DNA of 39,053 nt, from assembly GCA_044359815.1 (NCBI GenBank), contig JBIKLL010000018.1, positions 1-39,053 on the forward strand, given 5' to 3'. Below the pieces are notes generated by a model. That model was not told the origin of the DNA. It made no database searches and was given only the letters and a program-made list of their open reading frames with translations. Position 1 is the stretch's first letter; every line of letters starts with the position of its first letter. The position numbers were made by a program, and so were the translations under genes. Below are positions 3,147 to 39,053 of the stretch, one piece after another. The DNA comes from Pseudobdellovibrionaceae bacterium. GTDB lineage: Bacteria; Bdellovibrionota; Bdellovibrionia; Bdellovibrionales; Bdellovibrionaceae.

Positions 3147-4133
3147 TTACTGGCAAGATTCCAGATTAAAATAAATCTTAGCTTTTCGAATATTCACAAA
3201 AGAACTGTCATTACTGTTTACCAACGCATTGGTGCGCAGTCTCAATAATGAATTTTCGCCGCATTCAGTAGTCATCAAATCGGTTCGACGGATCAATGTT
3301 CTGCCGATCAAGCTTGAACCTGCAGTTTTAAAATTCTTGCGACTGACTTTGCCACTGCTGCCTGGCAGAAAAACTTCGCTTTGAATCGATGCCGATGAAT
3401 CGGGAGCTAAATGAACTTTCGCACCAATGTCGACCTGAGAAATTACCAGTCTGTGTGATTTAGGGATTTGAATTGGAATCATAAAATTACAGGATTTGTA
3501 TTTTAATTCGCCGCTTTGTACCCGAAAGTTTCTGAATGTTAAATCCAGACTGTTATTTACAGGATCGATCTCGATACGAGTGCCTTCCAGATTTGATGGG
3601 CACCCTTTGCCTGCAATCATGATTTTGCTAAAATCAACAATGCCGTCCAGTCGTTCATCAGCCAGTAATTCTGTATCTGCCAAAATCCGACTGTCGATGG
3701 CAAAACCTTTAGGGAAGGGCGATAGGGCTTTTGAAATCACATAGTTGTCGTCATTGACGCCGACACTTCTGAGCATTTCGTGAAATACCAGATAATAAAT
3801 GTCACGATTCATTTCAAAATGTTCCAGCCACAGTTCGCCATTCAGCAAAACACTGTCCTTTACACCGATCGCATCCACAACGCTGCCAGAATTATCTATC
3901 AGTGTGTCCGTGGTTACTTTTATTTTATCAATAGTTAATGAAGACTTTAATGCTTCAATATCTAAACTTTTCTCTGAAACCAGCTTTCTGCCGGCTTCTG
4001 TATTTTCAAGCACCTCGATCACAGAGTTTCCCTGCGATATAAATGTTGCCCTTAGAAAATCACCGCCGTTGCCGACCATGTGTCCTGAAAATGCGGGCAC
4101 GCAAAAAAACAGTATTGTCAGTAGTTTTCTCAT
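3147..4133 (-). CDS. Secreted protein with N-terminal GNGGD/HE-motif domain and C-terminal DUF4360-like domain
   Basis: Signal peptide then GHMVGNGGD; LVFHEMLR; C-terminal AGKGCP...KSCNFMIPIQIP pattern typical of DUF4360. Confidence 0.65.
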   Translation of the reverse strand: MRKLLTILFFCVPAFSGHMVGNGGDFLRATFISQGNSVIEVLENTEAGRKLVSEKSLDIEALKSSLTIDKIKVTTDTLIDNSGSVVDAIGVKDSVLLNGELWLEHFEMNRDIYYLVFHEMLRSVGVNDDNYVISKALSPFPKGFAIDSRILADTELLADERLDGIVDFSKIMIAGKGCPSNLEGTRIEIDPVNNSLDLTFRNFRVQSGELKYKSCNFMIPIQIPKSHRLVISQVDIGAKVHLAPDSSASIQSEVFLPGSSGKVSRKNFKTAGSSLIGRTLIRRTDLMTTECGENSLLRLRTNALVNSNDSSFVNIRKAKIYFNLESCQ

Positions 4134-4963
4134 GAGTTTTCCTCCTGTTTATCCACACTGTTGTCGTTGTCCACGTCGCTGAGTGGAAACAAATGAACGC
4201 AGACTTTGTAAACTTCACTTTGTGGTGAAGTTTCTATCAGTGCAGACATTTTGTTTATAAAATCTCTGGTGAGCTTTTTAGCTTCGGAAATTTTATTGAT
4301 GTCTATTGCCATTGTCATTGCCACATAATCCCTTAAGCTGACGTCGACCTCATTAATCTTTTCTCGCGCAAGTTCCAAATCTTCCAGATGAGACTTGCGA
4401 ATGGCCAAACTGGCCACATCATCTGAAGATGCAAAATGCGGACTCAAGACCTGGAGACTTTTTGACTTTTTATTCCAAACAATCATTCCGATTCGATGCA
4501 TGCGCTCCAACGCTTCCTCGGCTTCTGAAGTTTTGATTTTCAGGCGGGAACTTATCCACTTAGCATCAGCAATGAAGTCCTTGGTTTCAGATAGGGACAA
4601 GATGGCGAAATGATGCCATTTACCAATAGCTTCAAACTGATCCCAATCAAGAATCTTTTTTTCTGATTCCAATGAATTTTGATCCAGGCCTTTGGTCTGG
4701 TCATTGGAACTCAAATCACCAGGAAACACTGACAGCAATCTTTTGCGTTCGTTGGTCGAAAGGTTCAGTTGCATCAGAATTTTTTTTGCTAATTTTAAAG
4801 AAACTTTTCTTTTGCCTTTTAGGATCTCGCTGACTGCAGATGGGCTTAAAGACAATTTTTTTGCAAAAGCTCGTAATGAAAATGCAGGATTCTTGCTTTG
4901 AATTTCAAGCAAGTTCTCCTGCATTTTCTTTTGTAATAGATATTGAAAATCTATCTCAGGCAT
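4130..4963 (-). CDS. TIGR02147-family protein (N-terminal HTH plus DUF4423)
   Basis: FSLRAFAKKLSLSPSAVSEILKGKR helix-turn-helix; WHHFAILSL; RDYVAMTMAI; EVYKVCVHLFPL C-terminal motif. Confidence 0.85.
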   Translation of the reverse strand: MPEIDFQYLLQKKMQENLLEIQSKNPAFSLRAFAKKLSLSPSAVSEILKGKRKVSLKLAKKILMQLNLSTNERKRLLSVFPGDLSSNDQTKGLDQNSLESEKKILDWDQFEAIGKWHHFAILSLSETKDFIADAKWISSRLKIKTSEAEEALERMHRIGMIVWNKKSKSLQVLSPHFASSDDVASLAIRKSHLEDLELAREKINEVDVSLRDYVAMTMAIDINKISEAKKLTRDFINKMSALIETSPQSEVYKVCVHLFPLSDVDNDNSVDKQEENS

Positions 4964-5523
4964 CGAACCAGTTTTAATTGTGTTTTGACTGATTGCAAAG
5001 TCATACTGGCGTTGCCCTTTGCGACTATAGCAGAATTTATTGCCAAGATCCCGGTTTGCAATTGGTCGTCACAACCAACCAACACTGTGGCATTTCTGTT
5101 TCCGACTGAATAGTTTTTTGAGCCAGATTCGAATCCTCGATTCAGTTCGCTCTGACCACCATTAACTGCTGAAACAACTGTAAACACTTGACCTGATCCT
5201 GAACCGATTCGTGCAACACCTCGGGCTGCAACCAAATCAGTGGCCAATGCATAGCCTCGGGGTAAAGCGTACTGAATTCTGACCATGCAGCTTTCGCGAT
5301 CAATGGCAGTGCCACCCTTTCTGCTGAGAGCTTTCATGTTTGGTGTGATCACCAGGGTTCCGTCTGCTGACATTTGCAAACGCAACTGACGGTCACTGCT
5401 GCAGCCTGTGCCGGCATGCACGGCTTCGCGAGTATTTAAAATTTGCCTAATGTCCTTTAGTCCTTCAAATGCCTGTGAGCTGAGTCCTGTTAGTCCGATC
5501 AAAATACTGATGATGGTTTTCAT
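4951..5523 (-). CDS. Secreted DUF4360-like protein
   Basis: Signal peptide; AGTGC...RESCMVRIQYALPRGY; terminal Cys (VRCLR); GGGGG SD-like tract upstream. Confidence 0.65.
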   Translation of the reverse strand: MKTIISILIGLTGLSSQAFEGLKDIRQILNTREAVHAGTGCSSDRQLRLQMSADGTLVITPNMKALSRKGGTAIDRESCMVRIQYALPRGYALATDLVAARGVARIGSGSGQVFTVVSAVNGGQSELNRGFESGSKNYSVGNRNATVLVGCDDQLQTGILAINSAIVAKGNASMTLQSVKTQLKLVRCLR

Positions 5524-25102: not shown

Positions 25103-26491
25103 CTATTGATCAACGCAGCTGCAGTTATGTGTCCAACCTTTAAAACATTTAGCACTGCTTGGTTGATCGGTGACAGGATCAATATTATAAAAATCACTTA
25201 ATGGATTCAGCAATCCAGATGGTGAACTACACACCCGATTTTGTCCAAGTGGGCAAACGGGCAGAGGCTTTGATTGAGTACAAGCTGCCGCTTGGTAAAT
25301 GATGGCTCCGTATGTTGCACCAGCCGCTGCGAAAAATGCCTGTCCATTTTGATCTAAGCGAGCGGTGTTCGTTCCACCATATGAACTGATCATACTGCAT
25401 TTTTGATCTAGGACAAATCTGAAGAACGATAGTTCATTGGGTGCAAAACCACCTGAATAACAAGCGTAAGTTCCGCTGCCAAAGCCACCGTAGTAACGCA
25501 GAAGAAGGTACTTGGATGTGTAACCGTTGGCAGAATCTCCGGCAGCAAATGCCAGTGGTGCTCCCAGATCCTGAGGTCTTAGTGAAAATAATTGGTTGTA
25601 GCAATCAGTCGCATTTGTTGTTGTGTTTTCGAAATCAAAAGTTCTTTCAATCATTGGTGAATAATCAGCAGCTGGAGCCAAATCAAATTGGTAAACCTGT
25701 CTGATCACGCATTTATTAGGAGTCAATGTCACAGGAGGAATTGGGTCTTCGCCACCTGTAGTTCCGCCAGTCGTACCACCAGTTGTACCACCTGTAGATC
25801 CGCCGCCGATATCACCACCGCCAACAGTTCCGCCAGTCGTACCACCAGTTGTGCCACCAGTTGTACCACCTGTAGTTCCGCCAGTCGTGCCACCAGTTGT
25901 GCCACCAGTTGTGCCGCCAGTAGATCCGCCGCCGATATCACCACCGCCAACAGTTCCGCCAGTCGTACCACCAGTTGTGCCACCAGTTATACCGCCTGTA
26001 GATCCGCCAGTCGTGCCACCAGTTGTGCCACCTGTTGTGCCACCTGTAGTTCCGCCAGTCGTGCCACCAGTTGTGCCACCTGTCGTACCACCAGTCGTAC
26101 CGCCTGTCGATCCGCCGCCGATGTCACCACCGCCAACAGTTCCGCCAGTCGTACCACCAGTCGTGCCACCAGTAGATCCGCCGCCAGTAACCGTGTCCAG
26201 ATATCCATTTATACAAACAATAAAATCAGCAGAATCAGAATCTACTCTGACTCCATTAATGTAACAGGCAATAATGTTTCCATTTCCATCCAGATCTGCA
26301 GTGTAAACTGCAGTTCCTGTGGAAGAGCTAGTCAGCGCAGAAGAGTTGCTTTGATTCATAAAGCTGGGTGAATTGTTGTCTGAACTAGGAAACAGTTCTC
26401 CACCCAAATCAGGAAGACATCCCATAAGGAATTGGCTTACCACCAATATTAAGGTCACTTTCACTGTCATTGTATCAAATTTAGATCTCAT
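25103..26491 (-). CDS. Lipoprotein with long GGTT repeat linker and Cys-rich C-terminal domain
   Basis: Lipobox LMGC; (GGTT)n tract; several Cys in the C-terminal domain; GGGGGAC SD. Confidence 0.8.
   Translation of the reverse strand: MRSKFDTMTVKVTLILVVSQFLMGCLPDLGGELFPSSDNNSPSFMNQSNSSALTSSSTGTAVYTADLDGNGNIIACYINGVRVDSDSADFIVCINGYLDTVTGGGSTGGTTGGTTGGTVGGGDIGGGSTGGTTGGTTGGTTGGTTGGTTGGTTGGTTGGTTGGSTGGITGGTTGGTTGGTVGGGDIGGGSTGGTTGGTTGGTTGGTTGGTTGGTTGGTTGGTVGGGDIGGGSTGGTTGGTTGGTTGGEDPIPPVTLTPNKCVIRQVYQFDLAPAADYSPMIERTFDFENTTTNATDCYNQLFSLRPQDLGAPLAFAAGDSANGYTSKYLLLRYYGGFGSGTYACYSGGFAPNELSFFRFVLDQKCSMISSYGGTNTARLDQNGQAFFAAAGATYGAIIYQAAACTQSKPLPVCPLGQNRVCSSPSGLLNPLSDFYNIDPVTDQPSSAKCFKGWTHNCSCVDQ
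25751..26188. repeat. Coding tandem repeat of 12-bp units (GGTT) with three interspersed VGGGDIGGGST units
   Basis: Repeated ccaccagttgtg / ccgccagtcgta variants on the + strand. Confidence 0.92.
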
Positions 26492-31985: not shown

Positions 31986-33647
31986 TCACTTTGGCTGGAG
32001 GGTTTTTGTAATCACATCGAGCAGTTCAAAACGTTTCTTTTGATTTTTTTCAAACATGTCATCAGATTCTTTTTGCTTTGATTCAGAATCTTCCAGCAGA
32101 GTTTTAATTTCTTTCTGTGCTTGATTGATTTCTGATACTTTTTCCAGTTTTTCTTTTAAGTATTTCTTAAGAGTCTCGGCAATTTTTTTACGTCTTTCCA
32201 ACAGATCGACCAGACTTTTTTGTAACGCAGGCTTTTTAGAGTCTTCGGGCTCCTCGATCAGTTTGATCTTGGTATCGCGAAAGTCCTTAGCGACCTTATG
32301 CCGCTCATCCAGAGTGGATTTGATGTCAAATTTTTCAGTCATGATTCTGTATTTCATTTGTCTAAAGCTATCAACGGATCGAAAGTACAGATCCCAGGAT
32401 TTCAAAAAATCTTCCCTTTGTATTTTCAGTTTGGCTTGATTGGATTTGATCGCAGAATGCAGTTTTGAAATCTTGTTTTTGCTGGATCCAGACCAGTTTT
32501 TAATATCAGTGCCTTGGCCTTTGTGGTCTTTGGAATCCTGGCTGTCTTGATCCTCAGAATCGCTTTTTGAATCATCATCTGAATCTTCGCTGTCTTGGTC
32601 CAATTTTATTCTGGACAGCACTTCCATCATTTTCGTGTAAGCTTTTGGCAGTAGGTTGTTGGATTCAAAGACAGCGCCTTTATCCAACAACATTATAACT
32701 GTTTGAAAGTCAGTGATTATGGAATCAGAAATTTTAGCACCATCAAAATGTGAGCCTGTCAGCAAGGCTTTGTCGAAATTAATTCGACTCAAGACTGTGT
32801 CCCTGAAGTCTGAGTATCTCAAATCAGTCCCATAAAAATTAATATTGTGCAGATGAGATTCTTTGAAGCTGATTCCAATCAGGTTTTGGTTGCTCAAATC
32901 CAGATTGCTGACGGGTTTTCCACCTTGATGTCCACAAGATGTAATCTGAAACTCGTTGTAGCCGATTTCAAAATCGTCATTCAAACACAGTTTTGCATCT
33001 TTGTTCCATTCGTAAATGCTGGAATCAGATTGAGGAATGGGGACCTGGTCGCTTTCACTGATCACAGGCAGATTAGGATCGGATCCTTGGCCGTGCTGAT
33101 TGGATGGTTGGGTCGTGGTTGTAGATAATGTAGTGGTAGTGATTAGTTGAGTCGTCGATGTCGTTGTGCTGGTAGTTGTGGTAGCCGGAGTAGTTGTTGT
33201 TGTGACAACTGCAGGAACAGTTGTGGTTGTTGAGCTGATAGTAGTTGTAGTGGGCTGCGCCGTTGTTGTCGTGGATGGAACTGTAGTTGTCGTTGTGATG
33301 GTGCTGGTCGTTGTGGTTGATAAAATGGTCGTTGTAGTTGTCGTGCTGGTTGTACCGCCCGAAGCTATAACTGACAGAACAGTGGTAGTAGTTTTAGGTG
33401 CATTGGTAGTCGTAGTTGCTAAGGTTGTTGTGGTATCGCTAATGGTTTCACCGCCACCAGTGGGTGGGATTTCAGGTTGAGGGTTTGGCGTTGTGGGAAT
33501 AGGCTCAGTTCCCGGACTGGTCACGGCACTAGGTGGTGCTGCGTTTTCTGACAAACAACCCGTGGTTACCAAACCAAATATGCTAATAATAAAAATCAGT
33601 AGTCTGATTTTCAGATGGGACTCCTTTGCGAATTCAGGTGAATCCAC
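31986..33647 (-). CDS. Putative lipoprotein with Thr-rich linker, pentapeptide repeats, acidic patch and coiled coil
   Basis: Hydrophobic N-terminus ending TTGC; poly-Thr tract; pentapeptide-like FYGTDLRYSDFRDTVLSRINFDKALLTGSHFDGAKI; K/E heptads. Confidence 0.78.
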   Translation of the reverse strand: MDSPEFAKESHLKIRLLIFIISIFGLVTTGCLSENAAPPSAVTSPGTEPIPTTPNPQPEIPPTGGGETISDTTTTLATTTTNAPKTTTTVLSVIASGGTTSTTTTTTILSTTTTSTITTTTTVPSTTTTAQPTTTTISSTTTTVPAVVTTTTTPATTTTSTTTSTTQLITTTTLSTTTTQPSNQHGQGSDPNLPVISESDQVPIPQSDSSIYEWNKDAKLCLNDDFEIGYNEFQITSCGHQGGKPVSNLDLSNQNLIGISFKESHLHNINFYGTDLRYSDFRDTVLSRINFDKALLTGSHFDGAKISDSIITDFQTVIMLLDKGAVFESNNLLPKAYTKMMEVLSRIKLDQDSEDSDDDSKSDSEDQDSQDSKDHKGQGTDIKNWSGSSKNKISKLHSAIKSNQAKLKIQREDFLKSWDLYFRSVDSFRQMKYRIMTEKFDIKSTLDERHKVAKDFRDTKIKLIEEPEDSKKPALQKSLVDLLERRKKIAETLKKYLKEKLEKVSEINQAQKEIKTLLEDSESKQKESDDMFEKNQKKRFELLDVITKTLQPK

Positions 33648-37826: not shown

Positions 37827-38252
37827 TCAGTAAGCACTGGGGTCAATGGAATCATCAGAAATTTTGCAAACAAAAGTATCAAGCGGAAGCATGGATCGTC
37901 TGGTGCCATAGGTGTATTTATCCATAGTGGCCCGTGATTCAGTGATATTTGAGATCACGTATTCAACTGAACTTAGGTCGTCGGCTTCTGGTAGTGACAG
38001 CAGCAATTCGTCATTACCGGTAGTGATGGCTGCTGAAGTGTTATTGTTGGCCCACCGGTCTTGATTTCGCAGTTTATAAGACCAATTGTTTCCAGCGGGT
38101 CCCTGAAATGTGCCGTTGTGGCTATAGATCTGGATTTCAATTTTGCGAAAGCCCATTCCAGTGCGTAAGGCGCCTTTGCCACAGACCAAAAACAAAGCAC
38201 CAAATGAGGTTTCAGCTAAAAGCATAATTAAAATCAACACGACGGTTTTCAT
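37827..38252 (-). CDS. Small secreted hypothetical protein
   Basis: Signal peptide; one Cys near each end (LVC...FVC); GGAG SD. Confidence 0.75.
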   Translation of the reverse strand: MKTVVLILIMLLAETSFGALFLVCGKGALRTGMGFRKIEIQIYSHNGTFQGPAGNNWSYKLRNQDRWANNNTSAAITTGNDELLLSLPEADDLSSVEYVISNITESRATMDKYTYGTRRSMLPLDTFVCKISDDSIDPSAY

Positions 38253-38349
38253 TTTATCTCCAAAGTTTTTTTGAAAATTTTCGCTTGGGTCGGAAGGGGA
38301 ATACCACAGGGAAATTGCTAATGAGAAGCCTTATTTGCGACAAGCTTGC

Positions 38350-38672
38350 AGATGATTTTGGGACTGGCGGAGAGGGCGGGATGGTTCGGGCAATCCTAGC
38401 CCTCACCCTTTGCGCTTATAGCGCTCAGGGCTTGCGCGCAAAAATCGCCACGCCAGCGCGACTTCGTCGCTTCTTCGGCAAATGCCTCGATGGCTTCCTG
38501 CGATTTTTGTTGAACCCGCGAACCATTGATAGATTCAGAATCACACTCCAAAACCGCCAGTCCCAAAATCATCTAGCACGAGGCGGACAAAAACTTGCGA
38601 CTGAGGCGTGGTACGGCCACGTCGCAAGGAAGCAAGTTTGTAGTTCAACAATGTGCTAGAAGATTTTCGGAC
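38350..38672 (-). repeat. tRNA-linked structured element with direct and inverted copies of the tRNA-Ser 3' end
   Basis: 38354-38382 matches 38662-38690 at 28/29 nt; inverted copy at 38554-38579; ttgaacccgcg copy at 38510-38520. Confidence 0.8.
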
Positions 38673-38765
<93 letters not shown>

Positions 38766-38857
38766 GGCGCTTAAGTATATTTTGGCTTTTCAGTGAAAAA
38801 ACTGCCACTTTTGGCAGATATGATCAAGAATTAGTTCTGCAGAAGGCCGCAAAATCA

Positions 38858-38886
38858 TTGATTTTAAGGTTTCAAATGCATAAAAA
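38858..38886 (+). promoter_or_regulatory. Candidate sigma-70 promoter for tRNA-Arg
   Basis: TTGATT-17 nt-TAAAAA, ending 11 nt before the tRNA. Confidence 0.45.
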
Positions 38887-38897
38887 AGGACTTTCGG

Positions 38898-38974
38898 GCG
38901 CCCGTAGCTCAGCTGGATAGAGTACTTGACTACGAATCAAGTGGTCGGAGGTTCAAATCCTTCCGGGCGCGCCA
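38898..38974 (+). tRNA. tRNA-Arg (ACG)
   Basis: GCGCCCG acceptor stem; anticodon arm CTTGA-CTACGAA-TCAAG; GGTTCAAATCC; encoded CCA. Confidence 0.97.
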
Positions 38975-39053
38975 TTTAAATCCGAAACAACAAACAAGCA
39001 CAAAATTGATTTTAGAAAAGATCCTGGGATTGAAGGATTTGAATAGCAGCATA

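What the first reader, a model, noticed from the sequence alone, without database searches (positions are those of the whole stretch)
38354..38690. 308-bp unit after tRNA-Ser regenerates the tRNA 3' end, with a 127-bp structured insert in the copied T-loop
Seen: the tRNA reads gggcgggat|ttgaacccgcg on the plus strand. The copy has the same halves (ending 38382 and 38510-38520) separated by 38383-38509, a GC-rich, hairpin-dense insert (caaaaatcgc/gcgatttttg, gcgac-ttc-gtcgc, gcgct-tat-agcgc). The copy retains CCA and trailer bases. Known: tyrosine integrases often cross over in tRNA T-loops and duplicate the 3' end, and E. coli tyrT is followed by repeats carrying the tRNA 3' end that yield a small RNA. 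No integrase is present. Inference: a miniature tRNA-targeting element, or a CCA-ended structured ncRNA processed from the tRNA precursor.
Basis: partly seen in the sequence, partly recalled or inferred. Interest (0 to 1): 0.75.

Follow-up and report, generated by a model that had tools for sequence, protein, structure and literature searches.

The report
Split tRNA-tail copy behind tRNA-Ser
Behind a serine tRNA gene lies a 308-base stretch that repeats the tRNA's tail twice more (once backwards) and carries an orphan GC-rich insert; it is laid out like the E. coli tyrT/RtT repeat, no relatives were found, and it is most likely a recombination scar, not a new mobile element or RNA gene.

Summary
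tRNA-Ser(GCT) lies at 38673-38765 (-). Its last 29 nt plus about 15 trailer nt recur 308 bp downstream, split exactly between T-loop positions 58 and 59 by a 127-nt, 58% GC segment (38383-38509). It pairs with the real tRNA end (24/26) and perfectly (21/21) with the distal copy. A hairpin with a U5 tract lies between the tRNA and that inverted copy.

The insert and the unit have no relative in Rfam, phage or plasmid records, 185,579 species genomes, or two billion-scale protein sets. The 39-kb contig carries no integrase or transposase. The insert's fold is only modestly better than shuffles (z -2.6).

The E. coli tyrT/RtT 178-bp unit has the same layout: an antisense tRNA piece, the T-arm 5' half, a GC-rich stretch at 58|59, then position 59 to CCA. 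There is no sequence homology, and the RtT model scores 13.5 bits against a cut-off of 45.

Best reading (0.45): a decayed, att-type recombination scar at a tRNA T-loop with a second orphan insertion, now acting at most as terminator/trailer. An RtT-like processed RNA or a live miniature element is not excluded.

The parts
38673..38765 (-). Intact tRNA-Ser(GCT) gene with encoded CCA
   Evidence: ARAGORN; Rfam tRNA 56.5 bits
38653..38701 (-). Copy A, the source: T-arm, acceptor 3' strand, CCA (positions 48-76) and a 20-nt trailer of the real tRNA
   Evidence: Reference member of repeats D1, D2 and I1; blastn
38589..38628 (-). Terminator-like hairpin (8-bp stem CTTGCGAC/GTCGCAAG with an inner stem) followed by U5, 45-84 nt after the tRNA end
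   Evidence: Fold of 38580-38652, -18.6 kcal/mol, z -1.82, 12 of 200 shuffles as good. The loop is too long for the consensus scanner, which did not list it. Coordinates are my count.
38554..38579 (+). Copy B: inverted copy of CCGCCA + 20-nt trailer. It pairs 24/26 with copy A and 21/21 with copy C, and is followed by TTTT on the tRNA-sense strand.
   Evidence: the repeat finder I1 and I2; blastn E 7.9e-8; A:B hairpin -61.4 kcal/mol, z -6.91, 0 of 200 shuffles
38521..38553 (-). 33-nt spacer between copy B and the copied T-arm half; unrelated to the tRNA body
   Evidence: Local alignment to the tRNA body is no better than shuffles (227 of 300 as good)
38510..38520 (-). Copy C, 5' half: tRNA positions 48-58 (T-stem 5' strand plus the first five T-loop bases)
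   Evidence: 11/11 identity to 38691-38701 (D2)
38383..38509 (.). 127-nt GC-rich orphan insert in the T-loop of copy C, with no TSD and no terminal inverted repeat
   Evidence: GC 58.3% vs 41.3%. Folds. No Rfam family. No relative.
38350..38382 (-). Copy C, 3' half: tRNA positions 59-76 (ending in CCA at 38365) plus 15 trailer nt. The two trailer differences from copy A are shared with copy B.
   Evidence: the repeat finder D1, 31/33; I2, 21/21 with copy B
37827..38252 (-). Downstream orphan gene (141 aa, no family) on the same strand. Its upstream region contains the unit.
   Evidence: ORF list. No Pfam, PHROG or NCBIfam hit. Only its own cluster, on 5 contigs.

Best explanation
This is a DNA-level scar of recombination at the tRNA-Ser T-arm. 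It is not an autonomous element and not a recognisable RNA gene.

Step 1 (inferred): a site-specific, tyrosine-recombinase-type event used an identity block running from the T-stem to about 15 nt past CCA. It left a displaced tRNA 3' fragment (copy C) 181 bp downstream of a regenerated tRNA end (copy A). Only 137 bp of intervening DNA remains. In this it resembles a CIME, an att-flanked remnant that has lost its integration genes.

Step 2 (inferred): the displaced fragment still offers a complete T-arm. It was hit in its T-loop, between positions 58 and 59, by a second piece of foreign GC-rich DNA, of which 127 nt remain.

Step 3 (inferred): an inverted copy of the tRNA tail plus trailer (copy B) arose locally. 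B and C are identical at the two positions where A differs, so they share a more recent history.

What the unit can do today (inferred from folds): the internal hairpin with U5, and the 26-bp A:B hairpin followed by U4, would end tRNA-Ser transcription. Any read-through RNA would fold B onto C around the insert.

The layout is the same kind of thing as the E. coli tyrT/RtT 178-bp unit.
For: The repeats are real and sharply bounded. DNA beyond the repeat ends is unrelated: 239 of 300 and 227 of 300 shuffles score as well. That is the pattern of att-type identity blocks and not of a long tandem duplication.

The repeat spans the T-arm to CCA. This is the part of tRNA genes usually duplicated by integrating islands: direct repeats of 15-221 bp, with recombination sites covering the T-loop, T-stem, acceptor 3' half and CCA (passages of bioRxiv 10.1101/2020.11.02.365908). 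[quoted passage not shown]

Decay to att-flanked remnants without integrase, followed by a second integration into the remnant's att site, is described for CIMEs (passage of PMC5704250).

The insert is compositionally foreign: 58.3% vs 41.3% GC, in the top 1.07% of windows. It is an orphan in every search made.

There is no recombinase or transposase among the 44 ORFs scanned.

There is an indirect hint of strain polymorphism. The neighbouring 141-aa gene's cluster is seen on 5 contigs and ArfB's on 5. The ORF whose start lies at the copy/insert junction (my inference from its 92-aa length) is seen on 1 contig only.
Against: No integrase, no island and no second distal repeat lie within the roughly 38 kb on the 3' side of the tRNA. 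Both postulated elements must therefore have decayed almost completely while leaving clean junctions.

A second integration would normally bring its own copy of the identity block. The insert has none, and the split is exact, with no duplication.

The copy includes trailer bases. That points to a local origin of the duplicated DNA and not to a foreign attP.

The inverted copy B, and its perfect 21/21 match to copy C, are not predicted by a simple att model.

The same six-point layout occurs in E. coli RtT, which is annotated as a small RNA. Such units can therefore be expressed.

The contig-count hint is weak, because the other contigs may simply end at the repeats.
Confidence: 0.45

Rival explanations
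1. It is an RtT-like trailer RNA. Transcription from tRNA-Ser, or from a promoter in the unit, reads into the module. Copy B pairs with copy C and the insert forms a compact GC-rich domain. tRNA-processing nucleases then release a stable RNA whose 3' region mimics the tRNA acceptor/T-arm and CCA, as for E. coli RtT.
For: The layout matches the E. coli tyrT unit point by point. Both have trailer bases copied, an antisense piece of the tRNA 3' region, the sense T-arm 5' half, a GC-rich stretch at 58|59 (68 nt at 69% GC in E. coli, 127 nt at 58% here), and then positions 59-76 ending in CCA.

The E. coli unit is annotated as small RNA RttR and is an Rfam family.

The module fold is strong: -112.4 kcal/mol, z -6.75, 0 of 200 shuffles. 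The GC content resembles that of structured RNAs in an AT-rich genome.

A minihelix-like hairpin ending in a free GCCA can be drawn at 38365-38407.
Against: The RtT model scores 13.5 bits against a cut-off of 45, E 4.2. The inserts share no significant similarity: 16 of 500 shuffles do as well for the inserts and 69 of 500 for the whole units.

The strong z-scores come from the perfect inverted repeats. The insert alone gives z -2.55 and the minihelix z -1.52, with 18 of 200 shuffles as good.

A hairpin with U5 and a 26-bp hairpin with U4 lie between the tRNA and the copy. No sigma-70-like promoter was found in 38100-39053.

The copied CCA is buried in a 21-bp helix. There is one unit, not a tandem array, and there are no homologues for covariation.
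Confidence: 0.2
2. It is a live or recently live non-autonomous mobile element. One version is the 127-nt insert as a hairpin-ended element that makes no TSD (IS200/IS605-type or similar) and landed in a T-loop. The other is the 225-bp segment 38350-38574, bounded by perfect 21-bp inverted repeats. Either would be moved in trans by an enzyme encoded elsewhere.
For: The insertion is clean, with no TSD and no terminal inverted repeat, and there are hairpins near both ends of the insert. A perfect 21-bp inverted repeat bounds 38350-38574 (I2). The composition is foreign. The unit-specific ORF is seen on 1 contig against 5 for its neighbours.
Against: The window holds a single copy. There is no hit in phage or plasmid records at E<=1. 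There is no relative in 185,579 species genomes: 6 peptide patterns gave 599 pattern matches and 0 were confirmed. The only hits in the two protein sets are to itself or to repeat proteins. There is no transposase in the contig and no TSD beside the 225-bp segment. Its 'inverted repeats' are simply the tRNA tail.
Confidence: 0.12
3. It is a purely local replication or repair accident. Template switching or slipped recombination around the tRNA's hairpins made the direct and inverted copies, and filler DNA was captured at a break in the T-loop. No recombinase or mobile element was ever involved.
For: All three copies carry trailer sequence specific to this locus. The inverted copy lies only 73 nt from its template. 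Copies B and C are identical, as expected from a single recent event. There are no recombinase traces.
Against: The direct copy starts exactly at the base of the T-arm and the insert sits exactly at 58|59, the same place as in the E. coli unit. That points to a site-directed process. The source of 127 nt of 58% GC filler is unexplained: there is no match in the window.
Confidence: 0.15
4. It is an assembly artefact. The window is a whole metagenomic contig, and the unit lies 350-700 bp from its end among short repeats.
For: The contig length equals the window length, 39,053. Exact repeats of 21-22 nt lie close to the contig end.
Against: The junctions fall inside unique sequence, with only 11 nt of shared sequence on one side. 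There is no long fold-back, and every segment is flanked by unique DNA.
Confidence: 0.04

Closest known systems
E. coli tyrT/tyrV 178-bp repeats and RtT (RttR) RNA, Rfam RF00391
   Same: The unit lies directly 3' of a tRNA gene on the same strand and ends with tRNA positions 59-76 including CCA. Further upstream it carries the T-stem 5' strand plus the first five T-loop bases, so the T-arm is split at 58|59. A GC-rich, hairpin-rich stretch lies between the two halves. An antisense piece of the tRNA 3' region lies upstream in the unit, and trailer bases are copied. A short, very basic ORF runs across the T-arm half into the GC-rich stretch (tpr in E. coli).
   Different: There is no sequence homology, and the RtT covariance model fails at 13.5 vs 45 bits. 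There is one unit here against 3-4 tandem units in E. coli. The antisense piece here covers CCA plus trailer, so the CCA is paired, whereas in RtT it covers the T-stem and acceptor and leaves the CCA tail free. Terminator-like hairpins lie inside this unit. The insert is 127 nt against 68 nt.
att direct repeats of tRNA-integrated islands and their decayed, integrase-less remnants (CIMEs), including accretion at the distal att site
   Same: Direct repeats made of the tRNA's T-arm-to-CCA segment flank a short stretch next to an intact tRNA. There is no integration gene. A second insertion sits in the distal repeat (passages).
   Different: The remnant is only 137 bp, plus the 127-nt insert. The repeats include locus-specific trailer. 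There is an extra inverted copy. The second insert brought no att copy of its own. No parent element is known.
Hairpin-ended elements that make no TSD (IS200/IS605 derivatives) and MITEs
   Same: The insert has no TSD, no terminal inverted repeat and hairpins near its ends. The 225-bp segment has perfect 21-bp terminal inverted repeats.
   Different: It is single copy with no relatives and no transposase. No family-specific end motifs were recognised, and the inverted repeats are tRNA-derived.

Membership tests
tRNA-integrated island / CIME (tyrosine-recombinase att scar) | Direct repeats containing the 3' part of the target tRNA flank the element next to an intact tRNA | tested here: met
   33 nt (31/33) plus 11 nt (11/11), spacing 308
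tRNA-integrated island / CIME (tyrosine-recombinase att scar) | Integrase gene in the element (island), or documented loss of it with att sites kept (CIME) | tested here: not met
   No integrase among 44 ORFs (Pfam), nor in the PHROGs and NCBIfam scans. This is compatible with a CIME-like state only. Derivation from a real element is not shown.
tRNA-integrated island / CIME (tyrosine-recombinase att scar) | Variable presence between strains (empty site) | tested here: inconclusive
   The unit ORF is on 1 contig, while the neighbour gene and ArfB clusters are on 5 contigs each.
RtT RNA (RF00391) | Match to the family covariance model at or above 45 bits | tested here: not met
   13.5 bits, E 4.2, with only the model ends aligned. 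The E. coli units score 133-138 bits.
RtT RNA (RF00391) | Unit 3' of a tRNA gene that regenerates the tRNA 3' end with CCA, with the T-arm split by a GC-rich stretch | tested here: met
RtT RNA (RF00391) | Tandem repetition of the unit | tested here: not met
   One distal copy only here. E. coli has three 178-bp-spaced repeat copies and four RtT model matches.
RtT RNA (RF00391) | Released from the tRNA primary transcript | not testable with these tools
   No expression data. Terminator-like hairpins lie between the tRNA and the copy.
MITE | Terminal inverted repeats plus target-site duplication plus many copies | tested here: not met
   A 21-bp perfect inverted repeat is present, but there is no TSD, a single copy in the window and none in the collections searched. 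The rest of the genome is unavailable.
IS200/IS605-derived small element | No TSD, no terminal inverted repeat, subterminal hairpins, related copies or tnpA/tnpB nearby | tested here: inconclusive
   The first three features fit the insert. There are no related copies, no transposase and no Rfam match.
tRNA intron (group I or other) | Interrupts a functional tRNA and matches an intron model | tested here: not met
   The insert sits in a 3' fragment, not in the gene. There is no Rfam intron match at E<=10.

The most novel reading that the evidence does not exclude
T-loop-split tRNA-tail modules may be a recurrent, unrecognised class, with E. coli RtT and this unit as two sequence-unrelated members in distant bacteria. 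In this class a tRNA gene is followed by an antisense piece of its own 3' end, its T-arm 5' half, a GC-rich structured domain inserted at exactly 58|59, and positions 59-76 with CCA. The recurrence of that break point would mark either a dedicated T-loop-targeting insertion mechanism (possibly using a folded hairpin made of the inverted tail copies as its recombination site) or selection for a CCA-ended tRNA-mimic RNA made from tRNA operons.
Probability: 0.12. Interest if true: 0.7.

Novelty: new variant of a known kind. Interest (0 to 1): 0.4.

Why it matters
If this is only a scar, it is a small, tidy example of how tRNA T-arms collect recombination debris, and it is of local interest. The useful by-product is the comparison with E. 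coli. The long-known tyrT/RtT repeat turns out, on direct reading, to have the same split-T-arm anatomy with the same 58|59 break. If more such units exist, that would give a concrete, searchable signature for asking where RtT-type RNAs come from and whether a T-loop-specific insertion process exists.

Tried and rejected
Searches and tests that found nothing:
- Rfam at gathering score on the whole window, and at E<=10 on 651 nt and 241 nt around the unit: only the two tRNAs, antisense tRNA look-alikes and a sub-threshold RtT hit.
- blastn ('distant' mode, E<=1) of 38340-38672 against phage and plasmid records: no match.
- Exact 27-mer of the tRNA T-arm plus variable arm in genome contigs: 0 matches, so no close relative's tRNA-Ser locus could be fetched.
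- The search for related loci with the 58-aa ORF over the insert: 599 pattern matches, 0 confirmed.
- The insert as a gene fragment. The 58-aa ORF against 1.84 billion representatives gave itself plus 4 weak hits. I inspected 2 of the 4; both are repeat proteins matched by repeated 24-50% identical short stretches, not homology. The 124-aa plus-strand ORF found only itself. There were no Pfam, PHROG or NCBIfam hits.
- A second distal att copy in the window: none at <=3 mismatches.
- Homology of flanks beyond the repeats, of the spacer with the tRNA body, and of the insert with local sequence: all at shuffle level.
- A tRNA-minihelix hairpin ending in GCCA: it can be drawn but is not better than chance (z -1.52).
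- Sigma-70 promoter scan: 0 sites.

Ideas rejected by reading the sequence, with motifs recalled from memory:
- Integron attC-like and Xer/dif-like readings: the core motifs are in the wrong order.
- A retro-copy of mature tRNA: the copies carry trailer bases.

Could not be done:
- Literature searches for the origin of the tyrT repeats found only a passing mention. The original tyrT papers are recalled, not seen.

Full report
WHAT IS THERE. The window is a whole 39,053-bp contig: the protein database lists its longest contig as 39,053. It comes from an unnamed bacterium with 41% GC. Its genes are ordinary chromosomal ones, including SecA, a cytochrome c oxidase operon, a DEAD-box helicase, MscL, a deaminase and ArfB, together with many orphan secreted proteins. 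tRNA-Ser(GCT) lies at 38673-38765 on the minus strand, and tRNA-Arg(ACG) lies divergently at 38898-38974.

- A 33-nt direct repeat (38350-38382 vs 38658-38690, 31/33, spacing 308) and an exact 11-mer (38510-38520 = 38691-38701) together reproduce tRNA positions 48-76 plus about 15 trailer nt.
- The copy is cut cleanly between T-loop positions 58 and 59 by 127 nt (38383-38509), with no duplicated or lost base (my numbering).
- The repeats are far beyond chance. In the pairwise blastn the 33-mer has E 7e-12 and the 11-mer E 0.013. The tail+trailer 17-mer occurs 3 times against 0.15 expected, and 0 of 100 shuffles reach 3.
- The insert has 58.3% GC. Only 1.07% of 127-nt windows (417 of 38,927) reach that value.
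- The insert's predicted fold is only modestly better than shuffles: z -2.55 on the tRNA-sense strand and z -2.25 on the other.

- There is a third, inverted copy of CCGCCA plus 20 trailer nt at 38554-38579. It pairs 24/26 with the real tRNA end (73 nt between the arms) and 21/21 with the distal copy (183 nt between the arms).
- Copies B and C share the two trailer variants that distinguish them from the real trailer. B also extends five bases further along the real trailer than C does.
- Between the tRNA and copy B lies an 8-bp-stem hairpin followed by U5 (38589-38628). The whole A:B hairpin (-61.4 kcal/mol, z -6.91) is followed by U4.
- DNA beyond each repeat boundary is unrelated, so the copies are short blocks with sharp edges.

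SEARCH FOR RELATIVES: ALL NEGATIVE.
- Rfam gives nothing for the unit except a sub-threshold RtT hit of 13.5 bits against a cut-off of 45.
- There is no blastn match in 50,697 phage or 72,556 plasmid records at E<=1.
- There is no second copy of the insert in the window.
- The tRNA's own 27-mer is absent from 185,579 species-representative genomes, so no close relative is in that collection.
- Six peptide patterns from the insert ORF gave 599 pattern matches, none confirmed.
- ORFs spanning the unit find only themselves among 5.8 billion clustered proteins.
- Among 1.84 billion representatives they find themselves plus 4 weak hits. The 2 that I inspected are repeat proteins matched by repeated short low-identity stretches, not homology.
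- No integrase or transposase is found among 44 ORFs, and there is no further distal repeat in the window.
- An indirect hint of polymorphism exists. The adjacent 141-aa gene and ArfB belong to clusters seen on 5 contigs. The 92-aa ORF that I infer starts at the copy/insert junction is seen on 1 contig.

COMPARISON WITH E. COLI tyrT. I fetched the K-12 locus. Each 178-bp unit is an RtT match of 133-138 bits. Read in tRNA sense, each unit contains, in order:
- trailer bases;
- an antisense-like copy of the T-arm and acceptor 3' strand;
- the sense T-stem 5' strand plus TTCGA (9/9 nt; present in 3 of the 4 RtT units, with a variant in the fourth);
- a 68-nt stretch at 69% GC, largely covered by the annotated tpr ORF;
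- tRNA positions 58/59-76 ending in CCA.

The break is at 58|59, with a one-base ambiguity. This is the same layout as here. The two units share no significant sequence: 16 of 500 shuffles do as well for the inserts and 69 of 500 for the whole units. In RtT the antisense piece pairs with the T-stem and acceptor and leaves the CCA tail free. Here it pairs with CCA plus trailer.

INTERPRETATION. I favour a DNA-level recombination scar (0.45).
- An att-type event over the T-arm-to-trailer block left a displaced tRNA 3' fragment.
- Its still-complete T-arm then received a second, now orphan, GC-rich insertion.
- A local inverted copy arose as well.

The weak points of this reading are the near-total decay of two elements with clean junctions, the locus-specific trailer in the copies, the absence of an att copy brought by the insert, and the unexplained inverted copy.

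Rivals:
- An RtT-like processed RNA (0.2). The architectural parallel favours it. The terminators, the buried CCA, the lack of a promoter hit and the weak structure statistics for the insert count against it.
- A non-autonomous mobile element (0.12).
- A purely local replication or repair accident with filler DNA (0.15).
- Misassembly (0.04).

NOVELTY AND SCORE. The kind is known: tRNA-tail-regenerating units, whether att scars or RtT. The particulars are new: a clean 58|59 split with an orphan insert, an inverted tail copy, and no sequence relation to RtT. I call it a new variant of a known kind, with interest 0.4. The bolder reading is that T-loop-split tail modules form a recurrent class. 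I give that a probability of 0.12; the survey in next step 6 would test it directly.

NOT SEEN OR NOT CHECKED. The rest of this organism's genome, any expression data and the original tyrT papers (recalled only) were not available. No supplements were consulted.

Noticed in passing
38952-38963 and 39032-39043: tRNA-Arg(ACG) (38898-38974, +) is followed 57 nt later by a perfect 12-nt antisense copy of its own T-loop plus T-stem 3' strand (I3). The contig ends 10 nt further on. A downstream antisense piece of the tRNA 3' region is thus seen at both tRNAs here, and in the E. coli tyrT unit.
   Followed up: partly
L001 (E. coli NC_000913 1285800-1287800), units at 911-1042, 1089-1220, 1267-1398, 1564-1695: The classic tyrT 178-bp/RtT unit contains the tRNA-Tyr T-arm split at position 58|59 by a 68-nt, 69% GC stretch, plus an antisense T-arm copy. 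I did not find this stated in the papers I could search.
   Followed up: yes
38425-38544 (-): A 39-aa ORF crosses the copied T-arm half and runs into the insert. It is very basic: 13 of 39 residues are K or R by my count. This echoes the 'protamine-like' tpr ORF annotated across the same part of the E. coli unit. In both cases it is probably a by-product of GC/AG-rich sequence.
   Followed up: no
25103-26491 (-), GC peak 25713-26227: This is the most GC-rich stretch of the window, up to 64.6% in 127-nt windows. It encodes a long run of TGGTTGG-type Gly/Thr repeats in a 462-aa orphan protein with a possible lipoprotein signal (my reading of its N-terminus). It has no Pfam, PHROG or NCBIfam hit.
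   Followed up: partly
31986-33647 (-): A 553-aa protein with a very long Thr-rich low-complexity linker, pentapeptide repeats and an acidic/Lys-rich tail.
   Followed up: no
38802-38817 and 38835-38854 (-): Two terminator-like hairpins lie on the minus strand in the 132-bp spacer between the divergent tRNA-Ser and tRNA-Arg genes, upstream of tRNA-Ser. What they would terminate is unclear.
   Followed up: no
3147-5523 (-): A TIGR02147/DUF4423 family regulator is flanked by two DUF4360 paralogues.
   Followed up: no
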